The notes: generated by a model not told the origin, from the letters alone. A stretch of DNA of 60,502 nucleotides from Aristaeellaceae bacterium (GCA_051883775.1 JBJEUJ010000113.1:1-60502); one strand, 5' to 3'. Counted from the first letter of the stretch, positions 41,375 to 57,862 are shown. Numbers and translations are program-made.

Positions 41375-43717
41375 TTACCAGCTGTATGGTTCAATGAAAA
41401 TCTGATAGTATTGCGTAAGCGCCGGTTCAATATAGGCCTTGACCTCTTTCAGATACTCCTCCGCCGGCCTGTCCCGGATATCTTCTTCCTTGCCGGACAG
41501 GAAATCGACCACGCTGATCACCACGCCGCCCACCGGACTCTCCATGGCCGTTTCCCGTACAGCAGTGTATTTCTCAAACTCAAGTGCGGTCATGGCCAGC
41601 ATGCTGTCCTTGAACTCAACAAAGGGCTGGTAGCATTCCTTCATATACTGCTCGTAAGAACCCACCTGATTCCCGATCAGCCCGCTGAACGAATCCGCCA
41701 GCTTCTTGCGAATGGGATGCGCCATCTGAACCGTTGTCATGAGATCAATCTGCGCGGAAAAGCCATCAGCTGCGTTGAATGACAAATTGGCAACCAGATT
41801 CGTACCATCCACAAACAATTTCCACTTGGGGCCCAAAACCGCTGCTGTCAGGGCTTCATACGCCTTGTCCACCGCGAAATCGGCTGTACACTGGCATCCA
41901 TGGGTGATCAGCAGAAACTGGATCTGACTCCGGGAATCCTTGGTCATGTCTTTCAGGTATTGCGCAGCATAATCCATGCTGCTGTCGCCAAGGTCGCTGA
42001 ATGCGTCGATGTATGGCTGGACATCTTCCAGGGTGACGGACTGGTAGCTGCAATATTCCTGACAGACATCCAGCAGAATGTCCAGCACATCCACGAGCAG
42101 CTCAGTCTGTTCGAACATAGTACTGTAGATTTCTGTTTTCTGACTGACGATGAGCTTGTTCAGATATTCATAGAACGCATCGTGCGTAAGCGCCTTCGTG
42201 CCGACAGCATCGTACATCTGCATGTAAGCCTGCCATGCCTTCCGGGCGTCCTGGGCGTCCGCTTGCCTGATGAGCTCCATATCAAAGCCGGCTATTTCCA
42301 GCACCTGCAGGATGTCCTTTCTCTCAATCGCCGTCTGATCCTTGGTGGATGCCAGCTGCTCCATCACCGATTTGGCCATCAATGCGCCCCGGGCCGGCGG
42401 AAGCAACTGAAGCTCCTCCAGGTCGCCGGATATGGTTTTGTACAGTTCAGCGGTGACATAGAATACCCGGTTCATGTCGCTATGATAGGTTTTATCACCG
42501 ATCTGATACTGCCCGGAGTAAAGGATGTCATGCATGAGCACAACAGCCTGGTAGCCCAGCTGCAGTGAATCGACATAGTACTTCAGCTGATTCCGGGTAC
42601 AGATGCACCTGAAGCAGTCGCCGCTTGTCATGTCTGTGCAGATGACCTGGCCTGTTGCCATGTCCACATAGTCAACCCTGACGTATACATTGATGATGTC
42701 ATATTCGCCCATGATTTCTGGCAGCATGGCAGACGAGCAACGGAAGGTTGTGTCCGTTACACAGGCATCATTGAGCCTAAGCGTGTTTTCAGGATCGGAC
42801 ATATCCACCAGATAGACATTGAAGCCCCTGCCCGCGATGGGCTCATGATTGAGCTGCCAGCCGATTTCAAACATGTATTCCTGTTCAAGAACAGGCCAGA
42901 AAAGCGAGCTTCCGCTCATGAAGGTGATCTCAAGCGCTTCCTGCTGGCCGGGCTGTTCTGCCGTCGCAGCGCCGTCAGCGGTCATGGAGCCTCTGTCCTT
43001 TCCGGACACGGATGCAAGCAGCGCATCCGCGTCAAAGGCCAGCAAATTGGCAGCCTGTGAAGGCGTCGCATACCGGCAGTATTCCTCCCGAAAGGCGTAC
43101 TTCAGCCCTTGCTCCACACAATACTGATGGGCCTCGGAATCTTTCACCACGAGGAAGGTTATGCCATCCGTATTCTGCAGCAGGCGTTCACGCGCATGAA
43201 AGGGGCCATTGGGCAGTGACACGTATTTCAACGTACCCTGCGGGTTCCCCAGATAGGAAACGGATTGATACGTATCGGGAATGACGATCATCTCCAGCGG
43301 TGCCAGCAGCGGTACGGCAGGTTCGCGCCAGTCCTCGCCGTATATGGCGTAGGTAAAATCGAATATGCCCGCATAACCGCCTTCGAGCGAACGGATGGTG
43401 TGAAACTGCTTCAGTTCGCCATTCAGGTAATAGCAGGAGGGAAAGACGACAACACTGTCCACCTCGGATGCCCTGAAGCCTCCGCAGGTGCCCCCGGCAA
43501 CATCCACGGTAAAATGATCCAGCCAATCCATCGGGTCATCATATTCTCCGCGCTGAAAGGACGCCACAGGCGTGGTCATCATCAGGGTGCTGTGATCACC
43601 ATTGCAGCCCGGCGCATGCGCGGAGTCCGCAGCGGCGATCGCTTCCGCCGCAAGAAGGACAAGGCACAGTACAAACGCGTACAGGAACCTGACAGCTTTC
43701 CATTCATGGAGACGCAT
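41375..43717 (-). CDS. Secreted hypothetical protein (~780 aa): degenerate LRR-like N-domain and long alpha-helical C-domain
   Basis: Start moved to the ATG at 43717, 9 nt after AGGAAAGG. Signal peptide 'FLYAFVLCLVLLAAEAIAAADSA'. 'IPDTYQSVSYLGN...LKYVSLP...VVKDSEAHQYCVEQGLKY' resembles the end of BspA-type LRR domains. The rest is unassigned. Confidence 0.6.
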   Translation of the reverse strand: MRLHEWKAVRFLYAFVLCLVLLAAEAIAAADSAHAPGCNGDHSTLMMTTPVASFQRGEYDDPMDWLDHFTVDVAGGTCGGFRASEVDSVVVFPSCYYLNGELKQFHTIRSLEGGYAGIFDFTYAIYGEDWREPAVPLLAPLEMIVIPDTYQSVSYLGNPQGTLKYVSLPNGPFHARERLLQNTDGITFLVVKDSEAHQYCVEQGLKYAFREEYCRYATPSQAANLLAFDADALLASVSGKDRGSMTADGAATAEQPGQQEALEITFMSGSSLFWPVLEQEYMFEIGWQLNHEPIAGRGFNVYLVDMSDPENTLRLNDACVTDTTFRCSSAMLPEIMGEYDIINVYVRVDYVDMATGQVICTDMTSGDCFRCICTRNQLKYYVDSLQLGYQAVVLMHDILYSGQYQIGDKTYHSDMNRVFYVTAELYKTISGDLEELQLLPPARGALMAKSVMEQLASTKDQTAIERKDILQVLEIAGFDMELIRQADAQDARKAWQAYMQMYDAVGTKALTHDAFYEYLNKLIVSQKTEIYSTMFEQTELLVDVLDILLDVCQEYCSYQSVTLEDVQPYIDAFSDLGDSSMDYAAQYLKDMTKDSRSQIQFLLITHGCQCTADFAVDKAYEALTAAVLGPKWKLFVDGTNLVANLSFNAADGFSAQIDLMTTVQMAHPIRKKLADSFSGLIGNQVGSYEQYMKECYQPFVEFKDSMLAMTALEFEKYTAVRETAMESPVGGVVISVVDFLSGKEEDIRDRPAEEYLKEVKAYIEPALTQYYQIFIEPYSW

Positions 43718-43925
43718 ATGAATCATCCTTTCCTGCGTATCACTCAGGTCATATCATGGACAGGCGCCATATCAGCATGGTACGCCGCCCGGTTTCTCCA
43801 TGGAGAAGACATTTAGCGCAACAGACGGCTTGCAGCCCCGCGAGCTGCGGAACCTGTGATCCCTATCCTGCCTGACGCGCTGAGCCATGTGCACCCCTGC
43901 GTCTGTCAACGACACCGTTCGCTGC

Positions 43926-46049
43926 TCATGAGGCATCGGACGGCATGATCATCGCATACTTTTCCCCATTGTGCAGCCATGTCAATATCGTCATCGGATT
44001 GTTTGGCAGCTCCTCCAGCAGATCATAGAGATACATCGGGCTCCTTTGTACTTTGTACAGCTGATCGCCGCAGCAGATATACCCTGTCCCGTCTGCGAAG
44101 CCATCGCAGACAATCATCTGATAGGAAGAAATCGCTTTGCGCCAGATGATATTCATTGTTTCAGTCTGCAGGATGACCTTGTGGTCGCGGTTCATCAGCA
44201 CGCACTGCGCTGCATCAGAATCGCTGACCATGTACAGCTCCTTATTGACAAGCTGGACATTACCCGGCGTGGATCCATTCAGCTTTCGTTCTTCGTCATC
44301 CGGAGAAACCATGCAGACATCGGAGCCTTTTCCCATGAGGAACACATCGTCGAACCAGTCAAGCAGCATGTCATACCCGGGCGCTATGGCGATGTCTCCG
44401 CCGCGCCATACCATACCGATCCTGCCATTCTGCACAACGGGCAGCAGATCATGCCAGTCGGGAAGCCTTTTAGCATTCTGCAGCAAGCCTGCAAAATCTT
44501 CCAGCGGGAAAGAGAACGCTTCGCTGTTCAGCCGCTGCCCCCGGCTGTCAATATACCATACCTGATTGTTGCTTGCAACAAAAGCCGTATCCGCATTGAG
44601 GGATGCAAGCATGTCCCACTGCGCATCTGTGATCCTGCGACCGGTTTGATCCACCAAGCCGCATTGCTGATCAGCAGTCCGGACAATGAAGGTATCATTG
44701 GAGAAGGACGCAACGGCTTGCACATCATTCGGCAGCGCGATGCTATCGTTTCGGAAATAAAGGGCTGTACTATTTTCCTGCTTGATGAAAGCACCCTTTT
44801 CGCCATTTGGCATGGTGATTACATCCACCATGCTCACCTTTTCCCATTGATTGGCATCGCTGAATAGAACATATTCGTCCCGCGGTCCGTTCCTGTAATC
44901 GTTGTACAGGGACAGGCACCATATGCCGTTGACCGACTGGCTGTAGCAGCCATTCCAGACAGGATCGATGATGTAGGTCTGCCGGGCGACATCGTATACA
45001 CCGTACTGCCTCTGGTCATCCGTCCTGACCGTAACGATAAAGTAATTGTCACGGATTTGTTCAAGCGATTCGCATGAAAGTGAAACGTCGGTGCCCGTGT
45101 GCATATTGATGATATGCCACATATCACCCACCTGACAGGTACAGTATGTATGATCCAAAATATCAACGAAATCATCACTGATTGCCGGAACAATCTGTTT
45201 CTTGTTATCCAGGTCATACAGGCCCATCAGCTGGCCGTCACACAGCGTTGCATACCAATGTCCGTCATGTTCATTGACATACAAGCTATCATAGGCAGGC
45301 TCCAGGATGACATTCAGGTTTTTGTCCAGAATGCCTTTCTTCTTGTCAATGGCTACGATATAGTAATCGTCCTCTGTGCGATCGATATGATCGTATATAC
45401 CCGGCTGTACGGCGTATGTGCCCTGCTTGTCAACGATACCGTATTCACACATCGCAGACATATGACGGCTTTCGATTTCTTCGTCCACGGTGATCTGAAG
45501 CACCGCATAGCCATTCACAAAATCCATCGATGAGCATGGTGTATAGGCACATTTGCCCACCTCATCCTTCCATTGCAGCACATTGTGTCCATCGATATCC
45601 AGATAGGAGATTCCCTCCCACCACTCGTATACGCCAATCAAGCCTTCGGAGTACGTGCCGATATCTTCATAGGAGCGATCCTGCGGAAGCACCTGATGGC
45701 CCTGACGGTCGATCAGCTGGCAGGATGCATTGGTCATATACACCTTGGCATAGCCATTGGCATCAAAATCCTCAGCATACACATAGGTGGGCGGAACGGT
45801 CACATTGCCATGACGGTCAATGAAGCCATAAAGCCCGTTATCGGGATTTCCGTTTGAATGAAGCGTTCCTACAAAGAATCTGGCGAAGCCGTTGACGAAG
45901 GGATACACGTAGTCGGCATCACCAATATCAATCCATGTTGTCCGATCATTTGCATCCTGAATCATGGACGATTGTTCTGCATGGCAGATCGTCCCAAGCA
46001 TCAGAACAGCCAGGAGTACCGCAAGCATCATCTTCGGTCGCAGCTTCAT
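43926..46049 (-). CDS. Secreted WG-repeat (KWG-type beta-repeat) protein
   Basis: Start at 46049, after AAGGAGG. Leader 'MKLRPKMMLAVLLAVLMLGTICHAEQSSMIQD'. There are many repeats of the pattern 'F.NG.A.V....K.G.ID..G..V.P..Y', for example 'FVNGFARFFVG...LYGFIDRHGNVTVPPTYVYAEDFDANGYAKVY'. Confidence 0.75.
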   Translation of the reverse strand: MKLRPKMMLAVLLAVLMLGTICHAEQSSMIQDANDRTTWIDIGDADYVYPFVNGFARFFVGTLHSNGNPDNGLYGFIDRHGNVTVPPTYVYAEDFDANGYAKVYMTNASCQLIDRQGHQVLPQDRSYEDIGTYSEGLIGVYEWWEGISYLDIDGHNVLQWKDEVGKCAYTPCSSMDFVNGYAVLQITVDEEIESRHMSAMCEYGIVDKQGTYAVQPGIYDHIDRTEDDYYIVAIDKKKGILDKNLNVILEPAYDSLYVNEHDGHWYATLCDGQLMGLYDLDNKKQIVPAISDDFVDILDHTYCTCQVGDMWHIINMHTGTDVSLSCESLEQIRDNYFIVTVRTDDQRQYGVYDVARQTYIIDPVWNGCYSQSVNGIWCLSLYNDYRNGPRDEYVLFSDANQWEKVSMVDVITMPNGEKGAFIKQENSTALYFRNDSIALPNDVQAVASFSNDTFIVRTADQQCGLVDQTGRRITDAQWDMLASLNADTAFVASNNQVWYIDSRGQRLNSEAFSFPLEDFAGLLQNAKRLPDWHDLLPVVQNGRIGMVWRGGDIAIAPGYDMLLDWFDDVFLMGKGSDVCMVSPDDEERKLNGSTPGNVQLVNKELYMVSDSDAAQCVLMNRDHKVILQTETMNIIWRKAISSYQMIVCDGFADGTGYICCGDQLYKVQRSPMYLYDLLEELPNNPMTILTWLHNGEKYAMIMPSDAS

Positions 46050-46128
46050 CAAGGATAACCTCCTTTTTTCATTCACCATTCCAGGCCACGCACAGAACCT
46101 TTGGGAAAAGCTTCCGCTATGCTCTGTA

Positions 46129-46314
46129 TTACGCCCAAGAGGGTTTGATGATCAGTACGGGAACAATGTCATGAGCGGAGACAGTCTCTATCATATCAAA
46201 GATGATATTGCTATAGGAAACCAACGCTTTCAATACAGCTTTGCTAAGCTGTGTTGCAATGCTGAAGCGTTTGTTTATCCGGCTTTTCCACACCGAAGCA
46301 ACCCACCTCATCAA
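46129..46314 (-). pseudogene. Relic of a DUF6273-like gene 3' end (paralogous to the end of 47965..49521)
   Basis: 'AVLKALVSYSNIIFDMIETVSAHDIVPVLIIKPSWA*' corresponds to 'AVLKASDTYGNIAFETAEPGSAHDIVPVLILKPAWE*' in the intact gene. It occupies the same position, just upstream of a leader-bearing gene. Confidence 0.55.
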
Positions 46315-47885
46315 GGCTGCATATCACACTGGCTGTACTCGTTGTTGCCCACGCCGACCACGGTGCCGTCGGCCTTCAGGCCCACGGTATGATGTTCTCC
46401 TGCGCTGATGGCCACGATGTCTTTCCAGCCGCTCACATCGCACTCACCACACCCTTTAGGGCCTTCGGCGACAACGGTTCCATCGGCTTTCAGGCCAACG
46501 ATGTGGGAGCTTCCTGCACTAATGGCTGCGATGTCTGTCCAGCCACTCACATTGTACCGATTGGCCCACTTTCCTATAACGATAACGGTGCCATCAGCTT
46601 TCAGGCCAACCGTGTGGTAACTTCCTGCACTGATGGCCACGATGTCTGTCCAGTCACTTACATTGCACTGCCCATCGAGATTCAATCCCAAGGCTACAAC
46701 GGTGCCATCAGCTTTCAGAGCAACAATGTGGCTCTCTCCTGCGCTGACGGCCACAATATCTCTCCAGTCACTCACATTGCTCTGATCGAACCAAATATCT
46801 CCCACTGCGACAACGGTATCATCGGCTTTCAGACCAACGGTGCAGCTACACCCTGCGCTGATGGCCACGATGTCGCTCCAGTCACTCACATTGCACTCAC
46901 CGTGCTCATTCCACCCCGCAGCGACAACGGTGCCGTCGGCTTTCAGCCCGACGGTGTGATGTACTCCTGCACTGATGGCCACGATGTCTGTCCAGCCGCT
47001 TACATCGCACTCGCCGTACTCATTGCTGCCCACAGCCATCACCGTTCCATCTTCCCTCACGGCTGCGGTATGGTAGCCACCTACAGCAATGGTATTCTGC
47101 CCGGACAGGACGCGCGTGGTGGTCTGTTCGGGCTGCGTACTGCTTTCGGGGGATTTCTTCCTCAGGTAGATCACCTCGCCGCCTGTATTCAGCGAGAGGC
47201 TTCCGTCCTCATGCAACGCAACATATTGGTTGTCACTGACATACAGCATGCCGTCTTTCAGTGTCATCCGATAGGACTCTGACGGCTGCTGAAACAGCTT
47301 GTCCTGGTCGCCCGCAAAGAACAGCGTCATCGTACCATGATCAATGACGATCCCGAAAAAAAAGTATGACAGCGACTTCGGAATCCCTACGTCGCCCTTG
47401 ATGACATAGGCGTCATGCCATGTGCCGTCGAACGCATCCATGGATGCCGCAGGAATGACAGCGGGTGTATTGGCTTCCGCCGAAGCGCTGCGGCCAAAGA
47501 TAACAACCGCGTTTCCATGGATGCTGACCAGATGGCCGTCAATCGCATAGCAGGTTTCAAAGAGAGAAGTGCCCCGGTACAGGCGCAGACACCCGTCCTC
47601 AATGCGCCAGGTATAGGCGTTGGCAGACCCCTGCTCAAATGTTTCAGCCGTCCCATCCTGATTGATCTGCAGCACCATGTTCTCCCCGAGGACGGATGGA
47701 TCAAACAGCTCGCCCTGGTATTCCGCGTAGGTGGCATACCAGCGGCCGGAACAGTCCCACTGGGTACCGCCTTCCTTCCTGACGCCCACATCCTGAATCA
47801 TGGATGACTGTTCCGCATGACCGATTGTTCCAAGCATCAAAGTGGTCAGGAGTACCGCAAGCAACATTTTCTGTCGAAGCTTCAT
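46311..47885 (-). CDS. Secreted protein with lipocalin-like N-domains and a seven-blade RCC1-like propeller
   Basis: Start at 47885, after AAAGGGGG. The leader 'MKLRQKMLLAVLLTTLMLGTIGHAEQSSMIQD' is nearly identical to that of the WG-repeat protein. There are seven tandem 37-38-aa units, 'IVAISAG..HTVGLKADGTVVA.G.N..G.C.VS.W.D'. Confidence 0.75.
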   Translation of the reverse strand: MKLRQKMLLAVLLTTLMLGTIGHAEQSSMIQDVGVRKEGGTQWDCSGRWYATYAEYQGELFDPSVLGENMVLQINQDGTAETFEQGSANAYTWRIEDGCLRLYRGTSLFETCYAIDGHLVSIHGNAVVIFGRSASAEANTPAVIPAASMDAFDGTWHDAYVIKGDVGIPKSLSYFFFGIVIDHGTMTLFFAGDQDKLFQQPSESYRMTLKDGMLYVSDNQYVALHEDGSLSLNTGGEVIYLRKKSPESSTQPEQTTTRVLSGQNTIAVGGYHTAAVREDGTVMAVGSNEYGECDVSGWTDIVAISAGVHHTVGLKADGTVVAAGWNEHGECNVSDWSDIVAISAGCSCTVGLKADDTVVAVGDIWFDQSNVSDWRDIVAVSAGESHIVALKADGTVVALGLNLDGQCNVSDWTDIVAISAGSYHTVGLKADGTVIVIGKWANRYNVSGWTDIAAISAGSSHIVGLKADGTVVAEGPKGCGECDVSGWKDIVAISAGEHHTVGLKADGTVVGVGNNEYSQCDMQP

Positions 47886-47964
47886 GAAGTATACCCCCTT
47901 TTTTTCATTCATCATCGCAGGTCAAACACAGATTCTTCGGGAAAATACTTCCGCTATGCTCTGC

Positions 47965-49521
47965 TTACTCCCACGCAGGTTTTAGAATCAGCACGGGAAC
48001 AATGTCATGGGCAGAGCCGGGTTCAGCCGTTTCAAAGGCGATGTTGCCATAGGTGTCCGACGCCTTCAGTACAGCTTCTCGAAGCCAGAACTCGGACGCG
48101 CCCATCACATACGTATACCTTTTCTGGGAGCTTCCGCTCCTTTGATACACGTATTCGGATACATTGGCATCGACAACGGGATAACCGTAATTGGTCCCCC
48201 CCTGACGGGGCGCCTGATAGTTTTTGAATATTGCTTCGATTTCCTCCCGGGAGAGGATGGTGACTTCTTCGATCATTCTGGCTTCAGCAGGAGAAAACGC
48301 AGCATGGACAAAATCCTCGTTCAGCCATTGGTACAGCGAGCTATCTTCCCAGGCAACCTCCGCCGTGCCGGTGTGATAGGGCAGATACTCAAGCGCATTC
48401 GATGCCATGAGCATGATTTTTGATGAATCATTCAGATAAGGAATGTAAGACCATCTGATTGCCTCCGGCCCATTGCCGGTATTGCCATCCTGTTCATAGC
48501 GTCCGAATACCGGCGAAGTATCCTGTGCATGAGCAATCGCGGTACTGATTGGTTCACTGCAATGATCCAACCAGCAGGTGTAGGCGGTACTCATCAGGGT
48601 ATCGGCATAGTCAGTACTTAAGCGATCGTAAACCTGCAGCAGATCCAGGAACACCTGGTGACTTGTGCTGCAGTAGGACTCAGGATCCTGGTAATCCGCC
48701 ATCAACCGCTTCGTGAACTTCAGCATGTTGTCAGGCGAGTCAAAAAACGCATGGGTGGATGCCTGAATATATGCCAAAGCTCTGGGGATATCGTTCAGCC
48801 AGTGATCATAGGCAATATTCAGTAAGGGCCCGATGGCTTCTGCGTCAACAAACTCATAAATCGCAAGCAAATCCGTGAAGGCCTGACCGCTTGTATAACG
48901 GGTGGATTCCGTATCCTGATATTCGGTCAGCATCCTTTCTGACAGGCTTCGGATTCTGTCCCGGGCATCCTTGACGCCATTGGCTTTCTGATAGAATGCA
49001 AGCGCCTTGAGCACATCAGAATTCTCATATTTCCTGCCTTGCAGATAACAGTATTCTTCCACTGTGCGAACGCCCTTGATCAGCACACCGTCCTGCAGCA
49101 CCAGCTCAATCGCGCCGTCCGTGTTCGTCCGGAAAAGGCCTGTTGCATAGCCGTAGTAGCCGAAGCTGAAGTCGGAGAAGGTAATCCCGGCAAAGCATTC
49201 GCCCTCCCGCAGCTTATTGAGACGCTGCGAAAAAGATTGCTCCATGCTGTACGAGGCTGTTACAGGAATGTCAAGCCAGTTCGTTATGGCGACAGGTATA
49301 TCCAACCAGTTCGATTCGGCGGCAGAAACATCCTGCCAATTCATTTCGATGGTATCATCCTCCCGGATGGTGATACAGACAAACCTGTCATCCTCCAGAA
49401 AGCCGCCATATGTATCCACAAAGTCGACCTTTGTCAGCGAGAACAGCACGCCCGCTGCTGCGCCCGCGACCAACAAAACAGTCAGAACCGCAACCAGACA
49501 CTTCACGCTTTTGCTTTTCAT
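47965..49521 (-). CDS. Membrane-anchored protein with internal helical repeats and a C-terminal DUF6273-like domain
   Basis: N-terminal TM 'CLVAVLTVLLVAGAAAGVLF'. There is a tandem 9-aa duplication, 'NWLDIPVAITNWLDIPVTA', and two ~65-aa helical repeats. The C-terminal 'WEDSSLYQWLNEDFVHAAFSPAE...ILSREE...FWLRE...IVPVLILKPAWE' fits my recollection of DUF6273. Confidence 0.65.
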   Translation of the reverse strand: MKSKSVKCLVAVLTVLLVAGAAAGVLFSLTKVDFVDTYGGFLEDDRFVCITIREDDTIEMNWQDVSAAESNWLDIPVAITNWLDIPVTASYSMEQSFSQRLNKLREGECFAGITFSDFSFGYYGYATGLFRTNTDGAIELVLQDGVLIKGVRTVEEYCYLQGRKYENSDVLKALAFYQKANGVKDARDRIRSLSERMLTEYQDTESTRYTSGQAFTDLLAIYEFVDAEAIGPLLNIAYDHWLNDIPRALAYIQASTHAFFDSPDNMLKFTKRLMADYQDPESYCSTSHQVFLDLLQVYDRLSTDYADTLMSTAYTCWLDHCSEPISTAIAHAQDTSPVFGRYEQDGNTGNGPEAIRWSYIPYLNDSSKIMLMASNALEYLPYHTGTAEVAWEDSSLYQWLNEDFVHAAFSPAEARMIEEVTILSREEIEAIFKNYQAPRQGGTNYGYPVVDANVSEYVYQRSGSSQKRYTYVMGASEFWLREAVLKASDTYGNIAFETAEPGSAHDIVPVLILKPAWE

Positions 49522-49545
49522 ACTTGCCGATTCCCTCCATTGATA

Positions 49546-49890
49546 TTATTGTCCGTAGCTGAACAGTGAATCCACGTCAATGGAGGTGACGCCCTTTTTC
49601 AGCGTAACCTCCTCAAATTCAATGGTGTCGTTTGCGATTTTCCCGGTGATGCTTTGGCTGAAGCCGTAGGCCATCACAGTGAGCGTCAGCGTTGAGCCCT
49701 CCACCCTGTAGCTGCCGGAAACAGGAAACCCCAGGACATTGGTCGTTGCAGTGCCATCCTTGTTCAACTCGACCGTCATCGGAATGCCGAGCGCATTCAT
49801 ACCGCCATAGACGCCGGAATAATCCTTGCTGCACCCGGCAAGCAGCAGAACTGCCGCAGCAAGCGAAACCGCAAGCCATCTTCTTTTCAT
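49546..49890 (-). CDS. Small lipoprotein (114 aa), first gene of the island operon
   Basis: Lipobox 'VLLLAGCSK' and RBS GGAAGGATG. It has a beta-rich, lipocalin-like pattern, 'GSYRVEGSTLTLTV'. Confidence 0.7.
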   Translation of the reverse strand: MKRRWLAVSLAAAVLLLAGCSKDYSGVYGGMNALGIPMTVELNKDGTATTNVLGFPVSGSYRVEGSTLTLTVMAYGFSQSITGKIANDTIEFEEVTLKKGVTSIDVDSLFSYGQ

Positions 49891-49965: not shown

Positions 49966-50004
49966 ACCGCCTGTGTTGCATATGCTGCCGCTGATCATTT
50001 TCCG

Positions 50005-50033
50005 TTGCAAATTGGCAAGAAAATCTTTATAAT
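50005..50033 (+). promoter_or_regulatory. Promoter of the LytTR/kinase operon (TTGCAA-17-TATAAT)
   Basis: -35 at 50005-50010 and -10 at 50028-50033, with a 17-nt spacer. RBS GGAGG at 50064-50068 precedes the ATG at 50079. Confidence 0.5.
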
Positions 50034-50078: not shown

Positions 50079-50810
50079 ATGCTGCCTGTTGTTTTGCTGG
50101 ATGATGATGTCCACTATTCCAGCATATTCTCCTTACGCTTGCAGCGTGTCGCGGAGAAGCTGGGCTTTCCCTGCGAGCTTCGGCTGTGCGCCGAGAGCGC
50201 AGAGCAGGTTTTCACCTATGCCCAGGCGCATCCCGAGGGCAACCTGTACTTTCTGGATATTGAGCTGAACGAGGAAATGAACGGCCTGGCCGTGGCACGT
50301 CAGCTGCACCTGCTGGATCCGCATGGGTATATCGTTTTTATCACCGCTTATGAACACTATATCTGGGACGCCATGCATACGCATGTGTTCGACTATCTGC
50401 TCAAGCCGCTGACGGATGAAGCCATTGCCGCCTGCCTCCGCGGCATCAGCCGTGACCGGCAGAAAAAGCCCTTGTCCCGCTACAGCCTGGTTGTGCACAG
50501 CGGCACCCATACAATGATGATGAACCAGGAGGATATCCTCTATATCCATGTGAACGGCAACTATCTCACCGCCGTCATGCAGCAGAGCTGTCCGTATCAG
50601 TGGTACGGGCGGATGCGCCAGGTGGCGCCGCTGCTGGCAGAGGGTATGTTTATGCAGATCAACCGCAGCGACTGGGTGGCGCTGCGGCACATTCAGGGGC
50701 TTGATGCCAATGACAGCTGCTGTGTGCTGTCCAATGGCGAAATCCTGTCCGTATCCCGCCGCAGACTGGCGGAGCTCAGGAGCGCCCTGCAGGGGAGGGC
50801 TCAGCAGTGA
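50079..50810 (+). CDS. LytTR-family (AgrA-like) response regulator
   Basis: The receiver domain has all conserved residues: 'LLDDD', phospho-Asp context 'YFLDIEL', 'VFITAY' and 'DYLLKP'. The C-terminal LytTR-like domain includes 'EDILYIHVNGNYLTAV...MQINRSDWVALRHI'. Confidence 0.85.
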   Translation: MLPVVLLDDDVHYSSIFSLRLQRVAEKLGFPCELRLCAESAEQVFTYAQAHPEGNLYFLDIELNEEMNGLAVARQLHLLDPHGYIVFITAYEHYIWDAMHTHVFDYLLKPLTDEAIAACLRGISRDRQKKPLSRYSLVVHSGTHTMMMNQEDILYIHVNGNYLTAVMQQSCPYQWYGRMRQVAPLLAEGMFMQINRSDWVALRHIQGLDANDSCCVLSNGEILSVSRRRLAELRSALQGRAQQ

Positions 50811-52126
50811 TCAGCCTGGAGGTGTGCTGCGTCTGGTTCATTGTCAACATGGCAGACGGATCGATAATGTACCTGTTTTCCAGCATCATCCTGAACAGAA
50901 GGGTGACCTGGTCAGGATGGCTGGGCTATCTTTCCATCCTGATGGTGGTCGAGCTGGCCTCCATGCTGCTGATGGACGGGGGCTTCAGCGGCTGGAGCCT
51001 GTTGCTGGGGCTTGCGGAGCTGATCGGCATAGCGTTCATGGTGTTCCGCTACAGGGGCTGGGAGCTTGCCATTGGTGTGGCAACCATGCTGTGTGTCAAT
51101 ATGACGCTGGCGCTCTTGTCCGGAGGGGTGTCCATGCTGCTGCTGGGGGTGGAGCAGGTCAATGCCCTGATGCTGGATTGGCGGTGGCCCCGGCTGACAA
51201 TTGTCGCAGCGCACCTGCCGCTGCTGGTGCTGCTCCTGCCGGTGTACCAGCTGCGGAACTGGTGGCGGAACCGTCGTGCGGAGCTGCCTGATGGGTTCTA
51301 CTACATGCGCGCCCTGATTCTGCTGGCGGCTGCGGTAACCTGTATTGTGCTGCTGTTCAATCAGCTGCAGAGCATGGCGCTGGCCCAGCGGCTGAACCAG
51401 GTGGCGCTGCTCTTTGGCGTGGCAGCCGCAGTGCTGGCCATATGCCTGGCGCACCTGGCCCAGGATGTACGCTATCTGGGCATGCGCAAGCGGCATGAAA
51501 CCCTGTCCCGGAGCAAGCAGCTCAATGACGCCCTGGTGGAGGATATGCGTCAATTCCGCGGCAGCATGATCGCCATGGTGGATGGCCTGGGCGATGTGCT
51601 GCTGTCCGGCGCGCCCGAGGCCCAGCGGGCCTACTATGATCAGATGGCGCGGCAGTGCGCCCGGATCAACCATGAGAATGTACTGACCCTGCAGCGGCTG
51701 AATGAACCGGCGCTGGCCACGCTCCTGCTCAACAAGCTGGAACGGAGCAGACAATATGAGCTGCCCATGTACCTGCAGCTGACGGGTATGCCCGCCTTCA
51801 GCCGAAGGGTTCCATCCGCCGTATTGTGCCAGGCGGTGGGCGTGCTGGTGGACAACGCCATCGAGGCGGCGGCGGACTCCGAATATCCCCGGGTCAGCAT
51901 TGAGCTGGCACAGATCCCCAGGGGTGTTGAAATCAATGTGCTGAACACCTGCCCGCAGGAGCTTGACGTTCAGCGCTTTCTGGATGGAGAAGCCCTGTCC
52001 ACCAAAGGGGAAGGGCATGGGGACGGCCTGGCCAGCGTGGCGGCCCTGTGCAGGCGGTACCCCTGTATGCAGCTGAACAGATATGCCCGGGGCCGCTTTA
52101 TCGAATGCTCGCTGACAATCCGATAA
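50807..52126 (+). CDS. AgrC-like (HPK10/GHKL) membrane kinase paralogue 1: intact ATP-binding domain, phospho-acceptor His replaced by Gly
   Basis: Six or seven N-terminal TM helices. The H-box position reads 'DMRQFRGSMIAM' (GGC at 51560-51562) where the family has F-(R/K)-H-(D/N). The N-box 'VLVDNAIEAA' and G-box 'STKGEGHGDGLASV' are intact. The GTG start overlaps the RR stop. Confidence 0.75.
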   Translation: MISLEVCCVWFIVNMADGSIMYLFSSIILNRRVTWSGWLGYLSILMVVELASMLLMDGGFSGWSLLLGLAELIGIAFMVFRYRGWELAIGVATMLCVNMTLALLSGGVSMLLLGVEQVNALMLDWRWPRLTIVAAHLPLLVLLLPVYQLRNWWRNRRAELPDGFYYMRALILLAAAVTCIVLLFNQLQSMALAQRLNQVALLFGVAAAVLAICLAHLAQDVRYLGMRKRHETLSRSKQLNDALVEDMRQFRGSMIAMVDGLGDVLLSGAPEAQRAYYDQMARQCARINHENVLTLQRLNEPALATLLLNKLERSRQYELPMYLQLTGMPAFSRRVPSAVLCQAVGVLVDNAIEAAADSEYPRVSIELAQIPRGVEINVLNTCPQELDVQRFLDGEALSTKGEGHGDGLASVAALCRRYPCMQLNRYARGRFIECSLTIR

Positions 52127-52144
52127 GCAGGAGGCACAGCAGGA

Positions 52145-53422
52145 ATGTACACAACCGTGGAGTACTGGATCACTCTGGTGCTGAGAACCCTGCTGGATTG
52201 TGTCAACATGTACGCCGTTTGCTCCGCAGCGGTGGATGAAAAAATGACGGTCAGAGGCTACCTCCTGTTCTGCGCGCTGGAGACCGCCGTGGAGTGGGGG
52301 TACTGCCTGATCTGGGCACCGACCTATTCGGGCACCGCGTTTCTTGGCGCCATGGTGGTGGTGATGCTCCATGCGCGCATTGTGTATCACCGCCGCGGGC
52401 GGGCGTTTCTGCGGGCATCGGCAGCCATGCTGCTGGCGCAGTGTGCGTTCGTGGCGCTGTGCGCGCCGGTGGGTGTGCTGCTGTGGGGTGCAGAAAAGGC
52501 TAATGCCATTGTTGTCAGCAGCGGGTTTGACCGTGTGCGGCAGAGCGTGCTGAACGTAGCCCTGACGCCGCCCACCTGCCTGATCATCCGCCAGGTGCGC
52601 AAGCAGGCGCTGCGCTGCAGGGAGAAGGCGTCGGACATCCTGTACATGCTGCGTTCCGTGCTGCTGCTGGCGGTGGCGGTGGTATGTGCCTTTGTCCTGC
52701 TGAACCAGACCTCCTCCCTGACGTCATCCTCCCGTTTGCTGCCCATCACGATCAGTCTGATGGCCATCTGCCTGATGGCCTTTGTGTGTCTCTCCTACCT
52801 GATTGAGGACTTTCATTTCCTGAGCATGCGCCGCATGAACGACACGCTGGAGAGGCAAAAGCGGATGACAGAGGCGCTCATTGAGGATACGCGGCATTTC
52901 CGGCACAATGTGCTGAACATGATCTACGGCTTTGAGGGCATGCTCCTCAGCGAAGACCCGGAGCTGCGCCTGCGTTATTATCGTCAGCTGGCCGGCGAAT
53001 GTGCCAAGATCAACAATGAGAATATCCTGAACCTGCAGCGGCTGAACCATCCTGACCTGGAGGCGCTGCTGCTGGGCAAAATTCAACAGGCGCACAACCT
53101 GAACATTCCGCTCTTTGTTACCATCGGGAAGCTGCCGCGCATCCGCAAGGCTTCCGGGCTTGCGCTGCATCAGGCAATGGATCGGGCGGTGGATGACGCC
53201 ATCCGCATGGCGCAGAGCAGCGCCGATGCCCATGTTGGCGTATGGCTTGGCCTCGAAGGCAGCAACATCGGGCTGCGGGTGCTCTGCACCTGTGATGCGC
53301 CTGTCGCTCAGGATCGGAATGGCGCCCTGCTTCCGGGCATGGAGACTGTGCAGGCTGATGTGCCCGTCATGCTGCAAAGACAGGGCAGATTCCTGATCCA
53401 GACCATGATGTTTTTGACGTAA
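52145..53422 (+). CDS. AgrC-like membrane kinase paralogue 2: H-box intact, ATP-binding N and G boxes degenerate
   Basis: RBS AGGAGG. The TM sensor domain is followed by 'DTRHFRHNVLNM' (His codon CAC at 52904-52906). The N-box position reads 'AVDDAIRMA' (Asn to Asp). No 'KG..G.GL' box is present in the shortened C-terminus. Confidence 0.75.
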   Translation: MYTTVEYWITLVLRTLLDCVNMYAVCSAAVDEKMTVRGYLLFCALETAVEWGYCLIWAPTYSGTAFLGAMVVVMLHARIVYHRRGRAFLRASAAMLLAQCAFVALCAPVGVLLWGAEKANAIVVSSGFDRVRQSVLNVALTPPTCLIIRQVRKQALRCREKASDILYMLRSVLLLAVAVVCAFVLLNQTSSLTSSSRLLPITISLMAICLMAFVCLSYLIEDFHFLSMRRMNDTLERQKRMTEALIEDTRHFRHNVLNMIYGFEGMLLSEDPELRLRYYRQLAGECAKINNENILNLQRLNHPDLEALLLGKIQQAHNLNIPLFVTIGKLPRIRKASGLALHQAMDRAVDDAIRMAQSSADAHVGVWLGLEGSNIGLRVLCTCDAPVAQDRNGALLPGMETVQADVPVMLQRQGRFLIQTMMFLT

Positions 53423-53521
53423 ATCCTCTCATTTTCCCAACAACAGATCCCCCTGTTGTCGATGAACAACCATGATCGGAGATCATTTGCCCGGTAAGAA
53501 AGACCACTAAAGTCGAACAGT

Positions 53522-53558
53522 AAAAAAAGCGGAAATGTCATTTCTGACAATCCCGCTT
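53522..53558 (-). terminator. Minus-strand intrinsic terminator abutting repeat copy 2
   Basis: A bipartite hairpin, AAGCGG..TGTCA-tttc-TGACA..CCCGCTT (53527-53558). On the minus strand it is followed by a U7 run (A-run 53522-53528). A homologous hairpin lies at 40399-40430. Confidence 0.55.
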
Positions 53559-53562
53559 CGGA

Positions 53563-53973
53563 CGTGGAGCACAGGGGATTCGAAGTGCGTCAGTGGTATC
53601 CCATGCCACCCATTGATGTCACATCCGGCACCACTCATCATCCATATAAGGAGATTGTTTCAATCAGTATCCCATAACATACCACCTATTTCATGGTGCA
53701 GAACATGGTATTTGGTCAGGTTGAAGCAGTCAGGTTCAGTTCAGAATCATCCAATATTGTGCGGGTTATCACCATAGAGCTGGCCCCCAATACAATACAA
53801 AGCGTATCCTATGCGCCGAAGACTTTTTGCTTCACACATTTTCCGGGACAGCTATATTCGCATGCGCTGCAACCTGGCTGCGATATGCGGATATGTATGA
53901 CCACGGATCCCGCTGGTTTCATCTGCAGGTCAGTGCTCTACACCATCCTGAAATGTTCTTTTCAGGTGCTCCG
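53563..53973. repeat. ~410-bp direct repeat, copy 2 (partner 40482..40891)
   Basis: See copy 1. It has the same orientation and the same position relative to the att-like fragment and a minus-strand terminator. Confidence 0.85.
53564..53584 (-). other. tRNA 3'-end-like fragment: att-core candidate, copy 2
   Basis: The minus strand reads TTCGAATCCCCTGTGCTCCAC. It differs from copy 1 by one acceptor-arm position (G versus A). Confidence 0.5.
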
Positions 53974-54362
53974 TTATCCGGATACCCCCGGAAGCAAGTG
54001 CCTTGCCGAAGGTCAGCTGAAAACCAATAAATGGGAGCCGTTGCATGCAATAGCCAGGCGTACTCTGGCTTACGCGAAGCGAACCTTGAAAGATACCAGA
54101 ATGTCGCCAGAAGTCGCAGGACGGCCAAGGCAATACGTGCTATCATGTAAACTGTCACAGAAGGGTGAGAGCGCATGATGCTGCTCAGCATCGGGAGAAA
54201 GAGAGATCATTCACGGGCAGCTTATCCTCCCGCCAAGCCCATCATGAACCGCCCTTCCGTAATATGCCTGTGTTGAAGACCAGGTTCATCAGGGTTACTT
54301 ATACACATGATAAAAAGTTTCCAACAAAGTTGAAACATTTCCAATGAATGTCGAAAAATCCA

Positions 54363-54371
54363 TGCTATAAT
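54363..54371 (+). promoter_or_regulatory. Extended -10 promoter (TGcTATAAT)
   Basis: TGCTATAAT at 54363-54371. Downstream lie a hairpin (54405-54428) and, ~400 nt on, a strong terminator. Confidence 0.4.
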
Positions 54372-54735
54372 GGTATTGTACAATTTGGAATCGCACGATG
54401 AGCACCAACGGCATTGTCCGTTGGTGTTCTTACGTGCAACGAAAAGGAGGCAGCGCATGGGCAAGGCAGTTATACCGTTATGACCTTCCGGTTTCCCGTC
54501 ACCTGCGACCGACTTAACCTCGGAAGCGCGAACTGGTTGTGAGCCACACAGGGCTGATAGCTGGGAAAAGGACAGGAGAGTGACAAAAGAACACAATCAC
54601 AAAATGACCTATCCAATGTTCATACGATATTTCTCAAAAGAGGAGACACCAGAAGACGCATGGCGACACGAATGGACAGAAAGGAACAAGCAGAGACAAA
54701 GACTTTGTGTTATTATGTATCCTGTAAAAGTGCGA

Positions 54736-54770
54736 CGGGAGCCACCGAATGCGGTGGGCTCCCGTTTTTT
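54736..54770 (+). terminator. Strong intrinsic terminator upstream of the parM-like gene
   Basis: CGGGAGCCACC / GGTGGGCTCCCG forms an 11-bp stem with one bulge, followed by T6 (54765-54770). Confidence 0.75.
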
Positions 54771-54870
54771 GTACCCGTGTTCATGAACAGGAGGTGGTGC
54801 TCTTGATTGTGATAGACAAAGACAATTCTCTTCAGCCGACGACAATATCGAGAAAGCGAGTGAACCATGT

Positions 54871-55821: not shown

Positions 55822-56140
55822 CGGGATGAAGCAGATGAAGCTCCAGCTGCGGATGTATCCCGAAAGGAACGAGCAGCATCGCCGGGCCCTGGCGTGGCTG
55901 ATGGAGCACAGGACGGCGGGCGTCTCCTATGCGGATCTTGTATCGAAGGCAATCTGCGGTCAGATCGACCGGGAGCAGCGCATGGATGTGGAAGAGAGGA
56001 TGCGGCAGCTTGTCCGCGAGGAGATCCGGCGCAGCCTGCACGATGCAACCATCAGCGCGCCACAGGTGGAACCGCAGAAATCCTCCGAAGGAAGCCTTCG
56101 CAAGGCAAAGGACTTCATGTCCGGCCTGGGCTTCGGGTGA
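55811..56140 (+). CDS. Small RHH-like DNA-binding protein (ParR-like adaptor or relaxosome accessory)
   Basis: It overlaps the parM-like stop. The N-terminal 'MKLQLRMYPERNEQHRRALAWL' looks like a beta-strand plus helix (ribbon-helix-helix). An alternative start is at 55826. The function is inferred from its position between parM and oriT/mob. Confidence 0.55.
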   Translation: MSSNGMKQMKLQLRMYPERNEQHRRALAWLMEHRTAGVSYADLVSKAICGQIDREQRMDVEERMRQLVREEIRRSLHDATISAPQVEPQKSSEGSLRKAKDFMSGLGFG

Positions 56141-56504: not shown

Positions 56505-56572
56505 GCCCTTCAGGGGAAGCAACCTGCCGCAAAAACCACGGTTGCCCAATAGCATTGAAAGGAGGTGAATCG

Positions 56573-57859: not shown

Positions 57860-57862
57860 TAT

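What the first reader, a model, noticed from the sequence alone, without database searches (positions are those of the whole stretch)
50079..53422. LytTR regulator with two tandem AgrC-like kinases whose catalytic defects are reciprocal (one H-box-dead, one ATP-site-dead)
The two membrane kinases are clear paralogues. Compare 'LVEDMRQFRGSMIAMVDG...ARINHENVLTLQRLNEPALATLLLNK' with 'LIEDTRHFRHNVLNMIYG...AKINNENILNLQRLNHPDLEALLLGK'. Each lacks what the other keeps.

- Kinase 1 has Gly (51560-51562) exactly where the HPK10/AgrC family has its phospho-acceptor His (F-R/K-H-D/N). It keeps a canonical N-box (VLVDNAIEAA) and G-box (STKGEGHGDGL).
- Kinase 2 keeps FRHN (His codon 52904-52906). Its N-box Asn is Asp (VDDAIR), and it has no G-box in a shortened C-terminus.
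- The cognate receiver (D in YFLDIEL, T, K) is intact.

Histidine kinases are dimers, and AgrC is reported to autophosphorylate in trans. The simplest reading is therefore an obligate heterodimer, in which the kinase-1 ATP domain phosphorylates the kinase-2 His. This would couple two different multi-TM sensor domains into one output, as a two-input receptor. I am not aware that such a split-function AgrC pair has been described. The genes sit on a horizontally acquired island, opposite an operon of secreted proteins.
Basis: partly seen in the sequence, partly recalled or inferred. Interest (0 to 1): 0.8.

Follow-up and report, generated by a model that had tools for sequence, protein, structure and literature searches.

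The report
Split-function AgrC-like kinase pair
Two neighbouring membrane sensor kinases have each lost a different half of the kinase reaction, one the phosphate-accepting histidine and the other the ATP pocket, so they probably work only as a pair feeding one LytTR regulator, much like the FasB/FasC pair described in Streptococcus pyogenes in 2025.

Summary
The operon encodes a LytTR regulator (RR), then K1, then K2.

- **K1** has Gly252 where AgrC has His239. It keeps the N-box and G-box.
- **K2** keeps FRH254N. It has Asp at the N-box Asn position and has lost the ATP lid and G-box.

The pattern is not decay. Every complete orthologous operon recovered (four lineages down to about 46/38% identity, gut Oscillospiraceae/Clostridia) shows it:

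- The RR-K1-K2 triad is conserved.
- Gly is invariant in K1, and His in K2.
- Both DHp domains are equally conserved, with dN/dS about 0.05-0.2.

Among the 150 nearest family representatives, His is present in 139 of 141 and Asn in 138 of 142. The exceptions include these two families.

A second, independently duplicated pair (L017, one contig only) shows the same reciprocal losses with the gene order reversed.

The most likely mechanism is a K1:K2 hetero-oligomer. The K1 ATP domain would phosphorylate K2 His254 in trans, and the phosphate would pass to RR Asp60. Physical heterodimerisation could not be tested here.

The principle is not new. FasB/FasC/FasA of group A Streptococcus (Mol Microbiol, 2025) is an experimentally supported equivalent.

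What is new is the hard-wired, conserved and recurrent sequence signature.

The parts
50005..50033 (+). Promoter-like site TTGCAA-17-TATAAT, 46 nt upstream of the RR start codon
   Evidence: Consensus scan scores 10 of 12. The same TTG(C/A)AA-N17-TATAAT layout lies upstream of the RR gene in L001, L004 and L007. Its function is inferred.
50079..50810 (+). Response regulator (243 aa): receiver domain plus LytTR DNA-binding domain, with Asp60, Thr89 and Lys109 intact
   Evidence: Pfam Response_reg 2.6e-10 and LytTR 1.7e-13. Residues checked. dN/dS 0.06-0.3.
50807..52126 (+). K1 (439 aa): AgrC-like membrane protein that lacks the phospho-acceptor His but has an intact ATP-binding domain. GTG start overlaps the RR stop by 4 nt.
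   Evidence: HATPase_c_5 4e-8 and AgrC model 3.6e-12. Aligned to AgrC 6e52/4bxi. R248, F250, R251, G252, D349, N350, K400, G405 and G407 are invariant in 9 orthologues. AF2 model has pLDDT 75.6 with a lid helix at 388-392 and a helix at 407-417.
51560..51562 (+). K1 Gly252 codon (GGC) at the position of AgrC His239
   Evidence: Invariant in all K1 orthologues.
51854..51856 (+). K1 N-box Asn350 codon (within VLVDNAIEAA)
51998..52030 (+). K1 G-box STKGEGHGDGL (aa 398-408)
   Evidence: Aligned to AgrC STKGEGRGLGL. K400, G405 and G407 are invariant.
52127..52144 (+). 18-nt K1-K2 spacer containing an AGGAGG ribosome-binding site. The tight coupling suggests co-expression.
   Evidence: Sequence read. 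Spacing of 14-19 nt is kept in the orthologous loci.
52145..53422 (+). K2 (425 aa): AgrC-like membrane protein with an intact H-box and a degenerate, lid-less remnant of the ATP-binding domain
   Evidence: No HATPase hit; AgrC model 5.9e-6. Aligned to AgrC 6e52. R250, F252, R253, H254 and N255 are invariant in 8 sequences. AF2 model plus Foldseek hits AgrC 6e95 (E 1.7e-7), 4bxi (TM 0.67) and Spo0B 1ixm.
52904..52906 (+). K2 His254 codon (CAC), the predicted sole phospho-acceptor of the system
53195..53197 (+). K2 Asp351 codon at the N-box Asn position. This position is D, G, Q or A in orthologues.
41375..49890 (-). Divergently transcribed genes for secreted or surface proteins: a lipoprotein, a DUF6273 protein, an RCC1-repeat protein, a WG-repeat protein and one with no domain hit. 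These are candidate targets, given as context only.
   Evidence: ORFs and Pfam. The same neighbours occur in the 96%-identical loci L009-L012. Regulation by the RR is inferred, not shown.

Best explanation
The locus encodes a three-protein signalling system built from a duplicated AgrC-type (HPK10) sensor kinase whose two copies have divided the kinase reaction between them.

K1 and K2 are made from one tightly coupled operon. They most likely assemble through their equally conserved DHp helices into a hetero-oligomer, most simply a K1:K2 heterodimer. The only ATP site belongs to K1. It phosphorylates the only acceptor histidine, K2 His254, across the subunit interface. The phosphoryl group then passes to Asp60 of the LytTR regulator, which controls transcription. 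Likely targets are its own promoter and the adjacent genes for secreted proteins.

Shown here:
- the residue assignments;
- their strict conservation;
- purifying selection on all domains;
- co-inheritance of the three genes.

Inferred:
- physical heterodimerisation;
- the direction of phosphotransfer;
- the target genes;
- that both membrane domains sense signals.
For: 1. **Reciprocal defects are real.** They are anchored on the solved AgrC structure.
2. **The triad is always conserved.** All complete orthologous operons recovered carry RR-K1-K2: L001-L007, L009-L014, L020 and L021. They fall into four lineages, down to 46% (K1) and 38% (K2) identity, and include two MAGs labelled Clostridia and Oscillospiraceae. 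K1 always has FRG plus DNA(I/L)EAA. K2 always has FRHN, and its N-box residue drifts among D, G, Q and A.
3. **Selection is purifying.**
   - Whole-gene dN/dS is 0.1-0.3.
   - K1's His-less DHp is as constrained as K2's. dN/dS is 0-0.17 for K1 and 0.04-0.17 for K2, apart from the saturated window-versus-L001 comparison (0.22 and 0.27). Mean identity is 0.66 for both, and 40 of 85 columns are invariant in each.
   - The K2 CA remnant is relaxed (identity 0.38, dN/dS 0.19-0.44).
4. **K1 and K2 co-evolved.** Their trees are congruent.
5. **Structure models agree.** K1 has the lid helix, the G-box loop and the following helix. K2 has a short disordered loop in their place. The K2 model also resembles Spo0B, a His-bearing bundle with a dead CA domain.
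6. **Expression looks coupled.** There is a 4-nt RR/K1 overlap and an 18-nt K1-K2 spacer with a ribosome-binding site.
7. **Loss of these residues is rare in the family.** His is kept in 139 of 141 and Asn in 138 of 142 of the nearest representatives.
8. **A second pair arose independently.** Locus L017 carries RR-K2'-K1'. K1' has an 8-residue deletion of the H-box. K2' has lost the N-box and a 19-residue lid/G-box segment. Both group with the canonical solitary kinase P0078, not with K1 or K2.
9. **There is experimental precedent.** In FasBCA, two-hybrid assays detect heterodimers but not homodimers. FasC His246 is required and the FasC kinase domain is dispensable. The FasB DHp-plus-kinase fragment suffices (PMC12675982).
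10. **AgrC works in trans.** AgrC is reported to autophosphorylate in trans (George Cisar et al. 2009, as cited in PMC6066662).
Against: - No tool here could test K1-K2 binding or hetero- versus homodimer preference.
- All evidence is comparative; nothing has been measured.
- The signal or signals are unknown. No agrB/agrD-like genes are nearby.
- The second pair (L017) is a single contig with no orthologues in the databases searched. Its conservation therefore cannot be judged.
- A K2-like soluble protein (P0158) sits beside a LytTR regulator with no K1-like partner next to it. This shows that His-only derivatives can be fed by other donors.
- The order of the duplication relative to the canonical relatives P0017 and P0019 depends on which domain is used.
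Confidence: 0.7

Rival explanations
1. K2 is a Spo0B/HPt-like phosphotransferase or a phosphatase for the regulator, and it receives phosphate from a donor other than K1. K1 would be an ATP-binding pseudokinase that only modulates K2 or the regulator.
For: The K2 model resembles Spo0B. P0158 is a soluble His-bearing, N-box-dead relative. It lies directly upstream of a LytTR regulator with no K1-like partner, beside a hybrid kinase that has an Hpt domain.
Against: K1 keeps every residue needed for catalysis (N350, K400, G405, G407) under purifying selection. It is never found without K2, and K2 is found without intact K1 only once, in L008, where an IS element cuts K1. No other kinase is conserved near the triad across the different genomic contexts.
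Confidence: 0.12
2. K1 and K2 each form homodimers, and K1 dimers phosphorylate K2 dimers between complexes in a higher-order array. This is the same chemistry without a true heterodimer.
For: [quoted passage not shown] Nothing here resolves stoichiometry.
Against: K1's His-less DHp is conserved as strongly as K2's, which fits a shared four-helix bundle. FasB and FasC gave no homodimer signal in two-hybrid assays. DHp helix 1 has diverged in a family-specific way: FRG..I.MVD.LGG in K1 against the ancestral-like FRHN.LN.IYGFEG in K2.
Confidence: 0.1
3. K1 uses a non-canonical acceptor (another His, or Asp, Ser or Tyr), or it phosphorylates the regulator directly. K2 would be a decoy or an inhibitor.
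For: Other family members show odd H-boxes, for example Tyr in P0009.
Against: The only His invariant in the K1 family is His136, in the membrane domain. The cytoplasmic His residues of the window copy (216, 230, 289, 404) vary among orthologues. K2's FRHN is invariant, which a mere decoy would not require.
Confidence: 0.05
4. The substitutions are random decay of a redundant duplicate, so one or both genes are functionally dead.
For: The K2 CA remnant is the least conserved domain. One locus (L008) has K1 cut by an IS30-like element. A few low-coverage contigs show K2 split into two reading frames.
Against: ORFs are intact in every well-covered locus. dN/dS is 0.1-0.3 for both genes. The same two 'defects' are invariant across lineages with saturated synonymous divergence. 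The split-frame contigs have coverage of 1.2-2.6x, so these are likely sequencing errors.
Confidence: 0.03

Closest known systems
FasB/FasC/FasA of Streptococcus pyogenes (Baral et al., Mol Microbiol 2025; PMC12675982)
   Same: Two tandem, co-transcribed AgrC/ComD-like membrane proteins with six predicted transmembrane segments, plus one LytTR (ComE-like) regulator phosphorylated on Asp60. The His of one protein is required (FasC His246, matching K2 His254). That protein's kinase domain is dispensable. The other protein's DHp-plus-kinase fragment suffices, while its C-terminal truncations do not complement (FasB, matching K1). Two-hybrid assays detect heterodimers and no homodimers. The ATP-competent copy also precedes the His-bearing copy in both systems.
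   Different: - In Fas, both proteins are still predicted to have HATPase domains, and FasB still has His residues in its DHp. The division of labour was found by mutagenesis.
- Here the division is written into the sequence and is obligate: Gly for His in K1, and N-box and lid lost in K2.
- The regulator gene comes first here and last in fasBCA.
- The FasB membrane domain is dispensable, whereas K1's is under purifying selection.
- No FasX-like sRNA was detected.
- The host is a gut clostridial lineage, and the pair nests among canonical kinases from metagenomes.
AgrC/AgrA of Staphylococcus aureus (HPK10 kinase with a LytTR regulator)
   Same: It is the best sequence and structure match for both K1 and K2. 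The H-box is F-R/K-H-D/N, the ATPase domain is HATPase_c_5, and AgrC autophosphorylates in trans. The engineered H239 and G-box mutant heterodimers used to prove trans-phosphorylation (George Cisar et al. 2009, from my own knowledge) are the laboratory version of this natural pair.
   Different: AgrC is a single gene that forms a homodimer. It has agrB and agrD for its peptide signal, and neither is present here.
Spo0B of Bacillus subtilis (sporulation phosphorelay phosphotransferase)
   Same: A His-bearing helical bundle fused to an ATP-binding-domain remnant that cannot bind ATP. The K2 model matches 1ixm and 1f51.
   Different: Spo0B is soluble and receives phosphate from a receiver protein (Spo0F), not from a partner's ATP domain (own knowledge). 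K2 is a full-length membrane paralogue of its presumed donor.
Rv0600c/Rv0601c/TcrA of Mycobacterium tuberculosis
   Same: Two sensor-kinase genes with one regulator (PMC3544749). From my own recollection, one protein carries the ATP-binding domain and the other carries the H-box, and they act together.
   Different: There each gene encodes only part of a kinase (a gene split), from a different kinase family with an OmpR-type regulator. Here two full-length paralogues have complementary point and indel defects.
DivL (Caulobacter) and RetS/GacS (Pseudomonas): pseudokinases and kinase heteromers
   Same: Histidine-kinase homologues that have lost the acceptor His (DivL has Tyr), or that act through heteromeric contacts with another kinase.
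   Different: DivL works as a reversed sensor. RetS inhibits GacS. Neither forms a complementary pair in which each partner supplies the half that the other lacks.

Membership tests
HPK10 / AgrC-type sensor histidine kinase | N-terminal polytopic membrane sensor (6-7 helices) followed directly by the DHp helix | tested here: met
   The AF2 models of K1 and K2 each give seven long N-terminal helices, the last of which runs on into the DHp. Hydropathy analysis finds multiple hydrophobic segments in both. The AgrC NCBIfam alignment covers K1 residues 20-411 and K2 residues 71-365.
HPK10 / AgrC-type sensor histidine kinase | H-box F-(R/K)-H-(D/N) with the phospho-acceptor His | tested here: not met
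   K1 has F-R-G-S, and the Gly is invariant in the family. K2 does meet this feature: F-R-H-N is invariant. So neither protein alone is a complete member.
HPK10 / AgrC-type sensor histidine kinase | GHKL ATP-binding domain (HATPase_c_5) with the N-box Asn and G-box glycines | tested here: not met
   K2 has no HATPase hit. It has Asp351 at the Asn position (D, G, Q or A in orthologues), and the lid and G-box are deleted. K1 does meet this feature.
HPK10 / AgrC-type sensor histidine kinase | Cognate LytTR-family response regulator in the same operon | tested here: met
   Pfam Response_reg plus LytTR. The RR stop overlaps the K1 start by 4 nt.
FasBCA-like three-component system (heteromeric HPK10 pair) | Two adjacent AgrC-like membrane proteins co-transcribed with one LytTR regulator | tested here: met
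   Seen in the window and conserved in all complete orthologous operons recovered.
FasBCA-like three-component system (heteromeric HPK10 pair) | Division of labour: the His is needed in one protein only and the kinase domain in the other only | tested here: met
   Met at the sequence level: reciprocal losses that are conserved and under selection. Functional proof would need experiments.
FasBCA-like three-component system (heteromeric HPK10 pair) | The two proteins heterodimerise and do not homodimerise | not testable with these tools
   No multimer prediction or binding assay was available. There is only indirect support, namely equal conservation of both DHp domains.
FasBCA-like three-component system (heteromeric HPK10 pair) | Orthology to FasB/FasC and an adjacent FasX sRNA effector | tested here: inconclusive
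The Rfam gathering scan of 38000-60502 found no RNA family at all. The pair nests among canonical clostridial-type kinases, so an independent origin is likely but unproven.
agr-type peptide quorum-sensing locus | AgrB-type processing protein and AgrD-type propeptide next to the kinase and regulator | tested here: not met
   No such ORFs or Pfam hits were found among the neighbours in the window or in the orthologous loci.
Spo0B-like phosphotransferase | His-bearing helical bundle plus a CA-like domain unable to bind ATP | tested here: met
   For K2: the invariant His, the lid-less CA remnant and Foldseek hits to 1ixm and 1f51. The defining phosphate source, a receiver protein, is not testable here and is not what the operon suggests.

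The most novel reading that the evidence does not exclude
Duplication of an AgrC-type kinase followed by reciprocal loss, with the acceptor His lost in one copy and the ATP site in the other, may be a recurrent and selectively maintained route to obligate heteromeric receptors. It would have arisen independently in the Oscillospiraceae K1/K2 family, in the L017 lineage and in streptococcal FasBC. Such pairs would be natural proof of trans-autophosphorylation in this family. They would also wire two different membrane sensor domains into a single phosphorylation site, making a one-output, two-sensor receptor.
Probability: 0.45. Interest if true: 0.65.

Novelty: new variant of a known kind. Interest (0 to 1): 0.55.

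Why it matters
Histidine kinases are textbook homodimers, and natural obligate heteromers are very rare. FasBC (2025) is the first AgrC-type case, and it was found by genetics.

This locus shows the same division of labour fixed in the sequence. It is conserved under selection across a gut clostridial clade, and it was apparently re-invented in a second lineage.

That provides three things:
1. A simple sequence signature for finding such systems in genomes: tandem HPK10 genes, one without the H-box His and the other without the N-box and G-box.
2. A clean natural system with one ATP site and one acceptor His. This suits study of the directionality of autophosphorylation and of how two sensor domains control one output.
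3. A worked example of subfunctionalisation that creates dependency between paralogues.

Tried and rejected
- **Word-indexed homologue searches.** These found only 8 K1 and 5 K2 relatives. K2 orthologues of the distant lineages had to be read from the fetched loci.
- **Genome-collection scan.** It gave only two MAGs among 185,579 species, so the host is known only as uncultured Clostridia/Oscillospiraceae.
- **Searches for relatives of the L017 pair.** A metagenome scan with P0088 found nothing, and the last homologue search with K2' found only itself. Conservation of that pair is therefore untested.
- **P0017.** This is the nearest canonical kinase, but it lies on a 1.5-kb contig. Whether a K2 follows it is unknown.
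- **Tree topology.** It depends on the domain used. The membrane domain puts K1 and K2 as sisters (89%). DHp+CA groups K1 with P0017/P0019 (84%), probably because the K2 CA evolves fast. Only the separation of the K1/K2 clade from the K1'/K2'/P0078 clade is robust.
- **LytTR binding sites.** The search gave suggestive repeats in orthologues but only a weak 9-mer pair, 29 nt apart, in the window. This is not claimed as a site.
- **FasB/FasC sequences.** I could not obtain them, and the papers read do not print the motifs.
- **Heterodimer structure prediction.** It was not possible. Fusion constructs are not accepted, and the natural in-frame K1-stop-K2 read-through would be topologically meaningless.
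- **tRNA and Rfam scans of the island.** Both were empty.
- **First bootstrap tree script.** It timed out and was rewritten.

Full report
**1. What is in the window**

Three co-oriented ORFs occupy 50079-53422.

- The first (50079-50810, 243 aa) is a receiver plus LytTR response regulator (Pfam 2.6e-10 and 1.7e-13). Asp60, Thr89 and Lys109 are intact.
- K1 (50807-52126, 439 aa) starts at a GTG that overlaps the regulator's stop by 4 nt.
- K2 (52145-53422, 425 aa) follows after 18 nt containing AGGAGG.
- A TTGCAA-17-TATAAT promoter-like site lies at 50005-50033.

K1 hits HATPase_c_5 (4e-8) and the staphylococcal AgrC model (3.6e-12). K2 hits no ATPase model but still matches the AgrC model over residues 71-365 (5.9e-6). 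The two proteins are clear paralogues, 31% identical over 369 residues with E 2e-52.

**2. The reciprocal defects**

HMMER alignments to the solved AgrC kinase module (6e52) anchor the assignments.

| Motif | AgrC | K1 | K2 |
|---|---|---|---|
| H-box | MRKFRHDY | MRQFRGSM | TRHFRHNV |
| N-box | IILDNAIEA | VLVDNAIEA | AVDDAIRM |
| G-box | STKGEGRGLGL | STKGEGHGDGL | none |

AlphaFold models were built on shallow alignments, with mean pLDDT of 75.6 for K1 and 69.6 for K2, and 75-90 in the C-terminal domains. K1 has a complete alpha/beta ATP-binding fold, with a lid helix (388-392), a G-box loop and a following helix (407-417). K2 keeps the sheet and two helices, but residues 383-407 form a short low-confidence loop.

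Foldseek places the K2 model on AgrC (6e95, E 1.7e-7; 4bxi, TM 0.67). It also places it on Spo0B, the classic His-bearing bundle with a dead ATP domain.

**3. It is conserved, not decayed**

Homologue searches, contig look-ups, a scan of 185,579 species genomes and a metagenome scan recovered the operon in several places. These are human-gut and other metagenomes, plus two MAGs labelled uncultured Clostridia and uncultured Oscillospiraceae.

- Every locus with enough sequence has RR-K1-K2 with the same tight spacing.
- In nine K1 sequences (46-96% identity), R248, F250, R251, G252, D349, N350, K400, G405 and G407 are invariant.
- In eight K2 sequences (38-87% identity), R250, F252, R253, H254 and N255 are invariant. 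The N-box position drifts among D, G, Q and A, and the lid is always missing.
- K1 has no conserved cytoplasmic His. Only His136, in the membrane domain, is invariant.

Nei-Gojobori dN/dS is 0.1-0.3 for all three genes. By domain, and leaving aside the saturated window-versus-L001 comparison, the values are:

| Domain | dN/dS |
|---|---|
| K1 DHp | 0-0.17 |
| K2 DHp | 0.04-0.17 |
| Both membrane domains | about 0.12-0.25 |
| K2 CA remnant | 0.19-0.44 |

Mean identity among the four lineages is 0.66 for both DHp domains, with 40 of 85 invariant columns each. It is 0.58 for the K1 CA and 0.38 for the K2 remnant. K1 and K2 trees are congruent.

The one exception is L008. There an IS30-like element has cut K1 down to its last ~45 codons in front of an intact K2.

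**4. How unusual it is within the family**

A full HMMER search of 1.84 billion representatives with a K1+K2 profile gave 2,694 hits. Among the best 150, the H-box column is His in 139 of 141. The exceptions are the K1 family and P0088. The N-box column is Asn in 138 of 142. The exceptions are the K2 family and P0158.

The nearest canonical kinases, P0017 and P0019, keep FRHN, DNAIEAA and the G-box. P0019 is followed by more than 300 bp of non-coding DNA, not by a K2. K2's DHp helix (FRHN.LN.IYGFEG) resembles these canonical relatives. K1's has diverged (FRG..I.MVD.LGG).

**5. A second, independent pair**

P0088 lies in locus L017, which has the order RR-K2'-K1'.

- K1' (P0088) has an 8-residue deletion that removes the H-box. 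It keeps LDNAYEAA and TTKKDSRGVGL.
- K2' keeps YRHN. It has LSVARSEA in place of the N-box and lacks a 19-residue lid/G-box segment.

Both group with the canonical, solitary kinase P0078 at 84-100% bootstrap. K1 and K2 group with P0017 and P0019 at 93-97% on the full-length and DHp+CA alignments, with weaker support (16-54%) on the membrane-containing partitions. The two pairs therefore stem from separate duplications.

There is a caveat. L017 is a single contig with no relatives in the databases searched. Within each clade the exact branching also depends on the domain analysed.

**6. Mechanism**

With one ATP site (K1) and one acceptor His (K2), the only productive reaction is intermolecular. 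K1's catalytic domain phosphorylates K2 His254, which then serves Asp60 of the regulator.

The equal constraint on both DHp domains, the translational coupling and the precedents point to a K1:K2 heterodimer. A higher-order arrangement cannot be excluded. Both membrane domains are under purifying selection, so both matter. Whether they bind different ligands is unknown.

No agrB/agrD-like genes are present. Likely targets are the operon's own promoter and the divergent genes for secreted proteins (lipoprotein, DUF6273, RCC1 and WG repeats). Orthologous loci also carry secreted-protein genes next to the triad. They also have direct repeats abutting the -35 element: AACCGTTC twice, 21 nt apart, in L007 and L014, and a 23-nt tandem in L001. 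Regulation is inferred.

**7. Comparison with what is known**

The closest system is FasBCA of group A Streptococcus, with two tandem AgrC/ComD-like proteins and a LytTR regulator. The 2025 study reports the following (PMC12675982):

- Two-hybrid evidence for FasB-FasC heterodimers and none for homodimers.
- A requirement for FasC His246 and for FasA Asp60.
- Dispensability of the FasC kinase domain, which the authors call a 'pseudokinase'.
- Dispensability of the FasB membrane domain and of FasB His241.

AgrC itself is reported to autophosphorylate in trans (George Cisar et al. 2009, as cited in PMC6066662).

The present system differs in several ways.

- The split is hard-wired into the sequence and is therefore obligate.
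- The gene order differs.
- K1's membrane domain is retained under selection.
- The host lineage is different.
- The origin is probably independent.

I could not align FasB and FasC directly.

More distant analogues are Spo0B, the mycobacterial Rv0600c/Rv0601c/TcrA trio (the domain split is from my own memory), DivL and RetS/GacS.

**8. Genomic context**

In the window and the 96%-identical loci L009-L012, the triad lies in a low-G+C segment (about 0.52 against 0.65). On one side are secreted-protein genes. On the other are ParM-like, Mob_Pre, CHC2 primase and VapE genes.

In the more distant lineages it lies between rpsT and a SpoU-type methyltransferase in a core chromosomal neighbourhood. 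No integrase, tRNA or Rfam element marks the borders.

**9. Verdict**

- The mechanistic reading is the best-supported explanation (about 0.7), but it is unproven biochemically.
- As a principle it is no longer new. As a conserved, sequence-encoded and apparently recurrent variant of the FasBC type, it is worth a targeted experiment and a genome-wide survey.

Noticed in passing
L008:6019-6972: In one metagenome scaffold, a K2 orthologue (P0013, 67% identical) is preceded only by the last ~45 codons of K1 (...STKGEGRGSGL...LTIR*). The rest of K1 and the regulator gene are replaced by an IS30-like transposase gene on the other strand. This is either a disrupted copy of the system or an assembly join at an IS element.
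   Followed up: partly
L017:2978-6344: A second reciprocal pair with reversed gene order (RR-K2'-K1'). K1' (P0088) has lost the H-box through an 8-residue deletion. K2' (P0164) has lost the N-box and a 19-residue lid/G-box segment. It sits next to an FtsK/FHA (EssC-like) gene. It is a single contig with no relatives found.
   Followed up: yes
L025:5001-6399 (and L026): P0158 is a soluble 213-aa protein with an AgrC-type H-box (FRHN), Gln at the N-box Asn position and no G-box. It lies directly upstream of a LytTR regulator. A 1206-aa hybrid kinase with REC and Hpt domains is transcribed divergently, and a Spo0E-like phosphatase gene follows. This may be a Spo0B-like relay feeding a LytTR regulator.
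   Followed up: partly
L015:5261-7323 (Clostridium argentinense CDC 2741): P0009 is an AgrC-like kinase with intact N-box and G-box but Tyr at the acceptor position (FRYD). It is paired with a LytTR regulator, just downstream of a C39-peptidase ABC exporter and an HlyD-like protein (a bacteriocin-type locus). No second AgrC-like gene is adjacent. A HisKA kinase lies 2 kb downstream.
   Followed up: partly
L007:1206-1234, L014:5122-5150, L001:3583-3628; window 49975-50012: Direct repeats lie immediately upstream of the -35 element of the regulator gene in the orthologues. These are AACCGTTC twice with 21-nt spacing, and a 23-nt tandem repeat. Both resemble LytTR-type binding sites. The window has only GTTGCATAT and GTTGCAAAT 29 nt apart, the second overlapping the -35. 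This may be autoregulation, or chance for the window copy.
   Followed up: partly
window 53423-54870: About 1.4 kb after K2 has low G+C (~0.50) and no strong ORF. A 161-aa ORF (53693-54178) is also called in the near-identical loci L009-L012 but has no Pfam hit. No Rfam family matches.
   Followed up: partly
window 54871-59948: A mobility module lies downstream of the kinase genes: a ParM-like actin (ALP_N), a weak Mob_Pre relaxase, a CHC2 zinc-finger primase and a VapE-like helicase/primase. No integrase or tRNA was seen in the window.
   Followed up: partly
P0014 (303 aa, ENA contig of 1265 bp): This predicted protein joins the first ~175 residues of a K2 orthologue to a SpoU methyltransferase domain. 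In the chromosomal loci the SpoU gene lies about 1.5 kb beyond K2 on the opposite strand, so this is probably a rearrangement or an assembly chimera.
   Followed up: no
L022, L023, L024: K2 is split into two reading frames in three short human-gut contigs with coverage of 1.2-2.6x. K1 on the same contigs keeps FRG, DNAIEAA and the G-box. These are most likely sequencing errors rather than pseudogenes.
   Followed up: no
L001:7198-8568(-), L013:8762-10132(-), L014:8641-10020(-): A conserved 456-459-aa secreted or lipoprotein-like protein (weak SH3_3 hit) is encoded convergently just downstream of K2 in all chromosomal-context loci. It is absent from the window's island copy.
   Followed up: no
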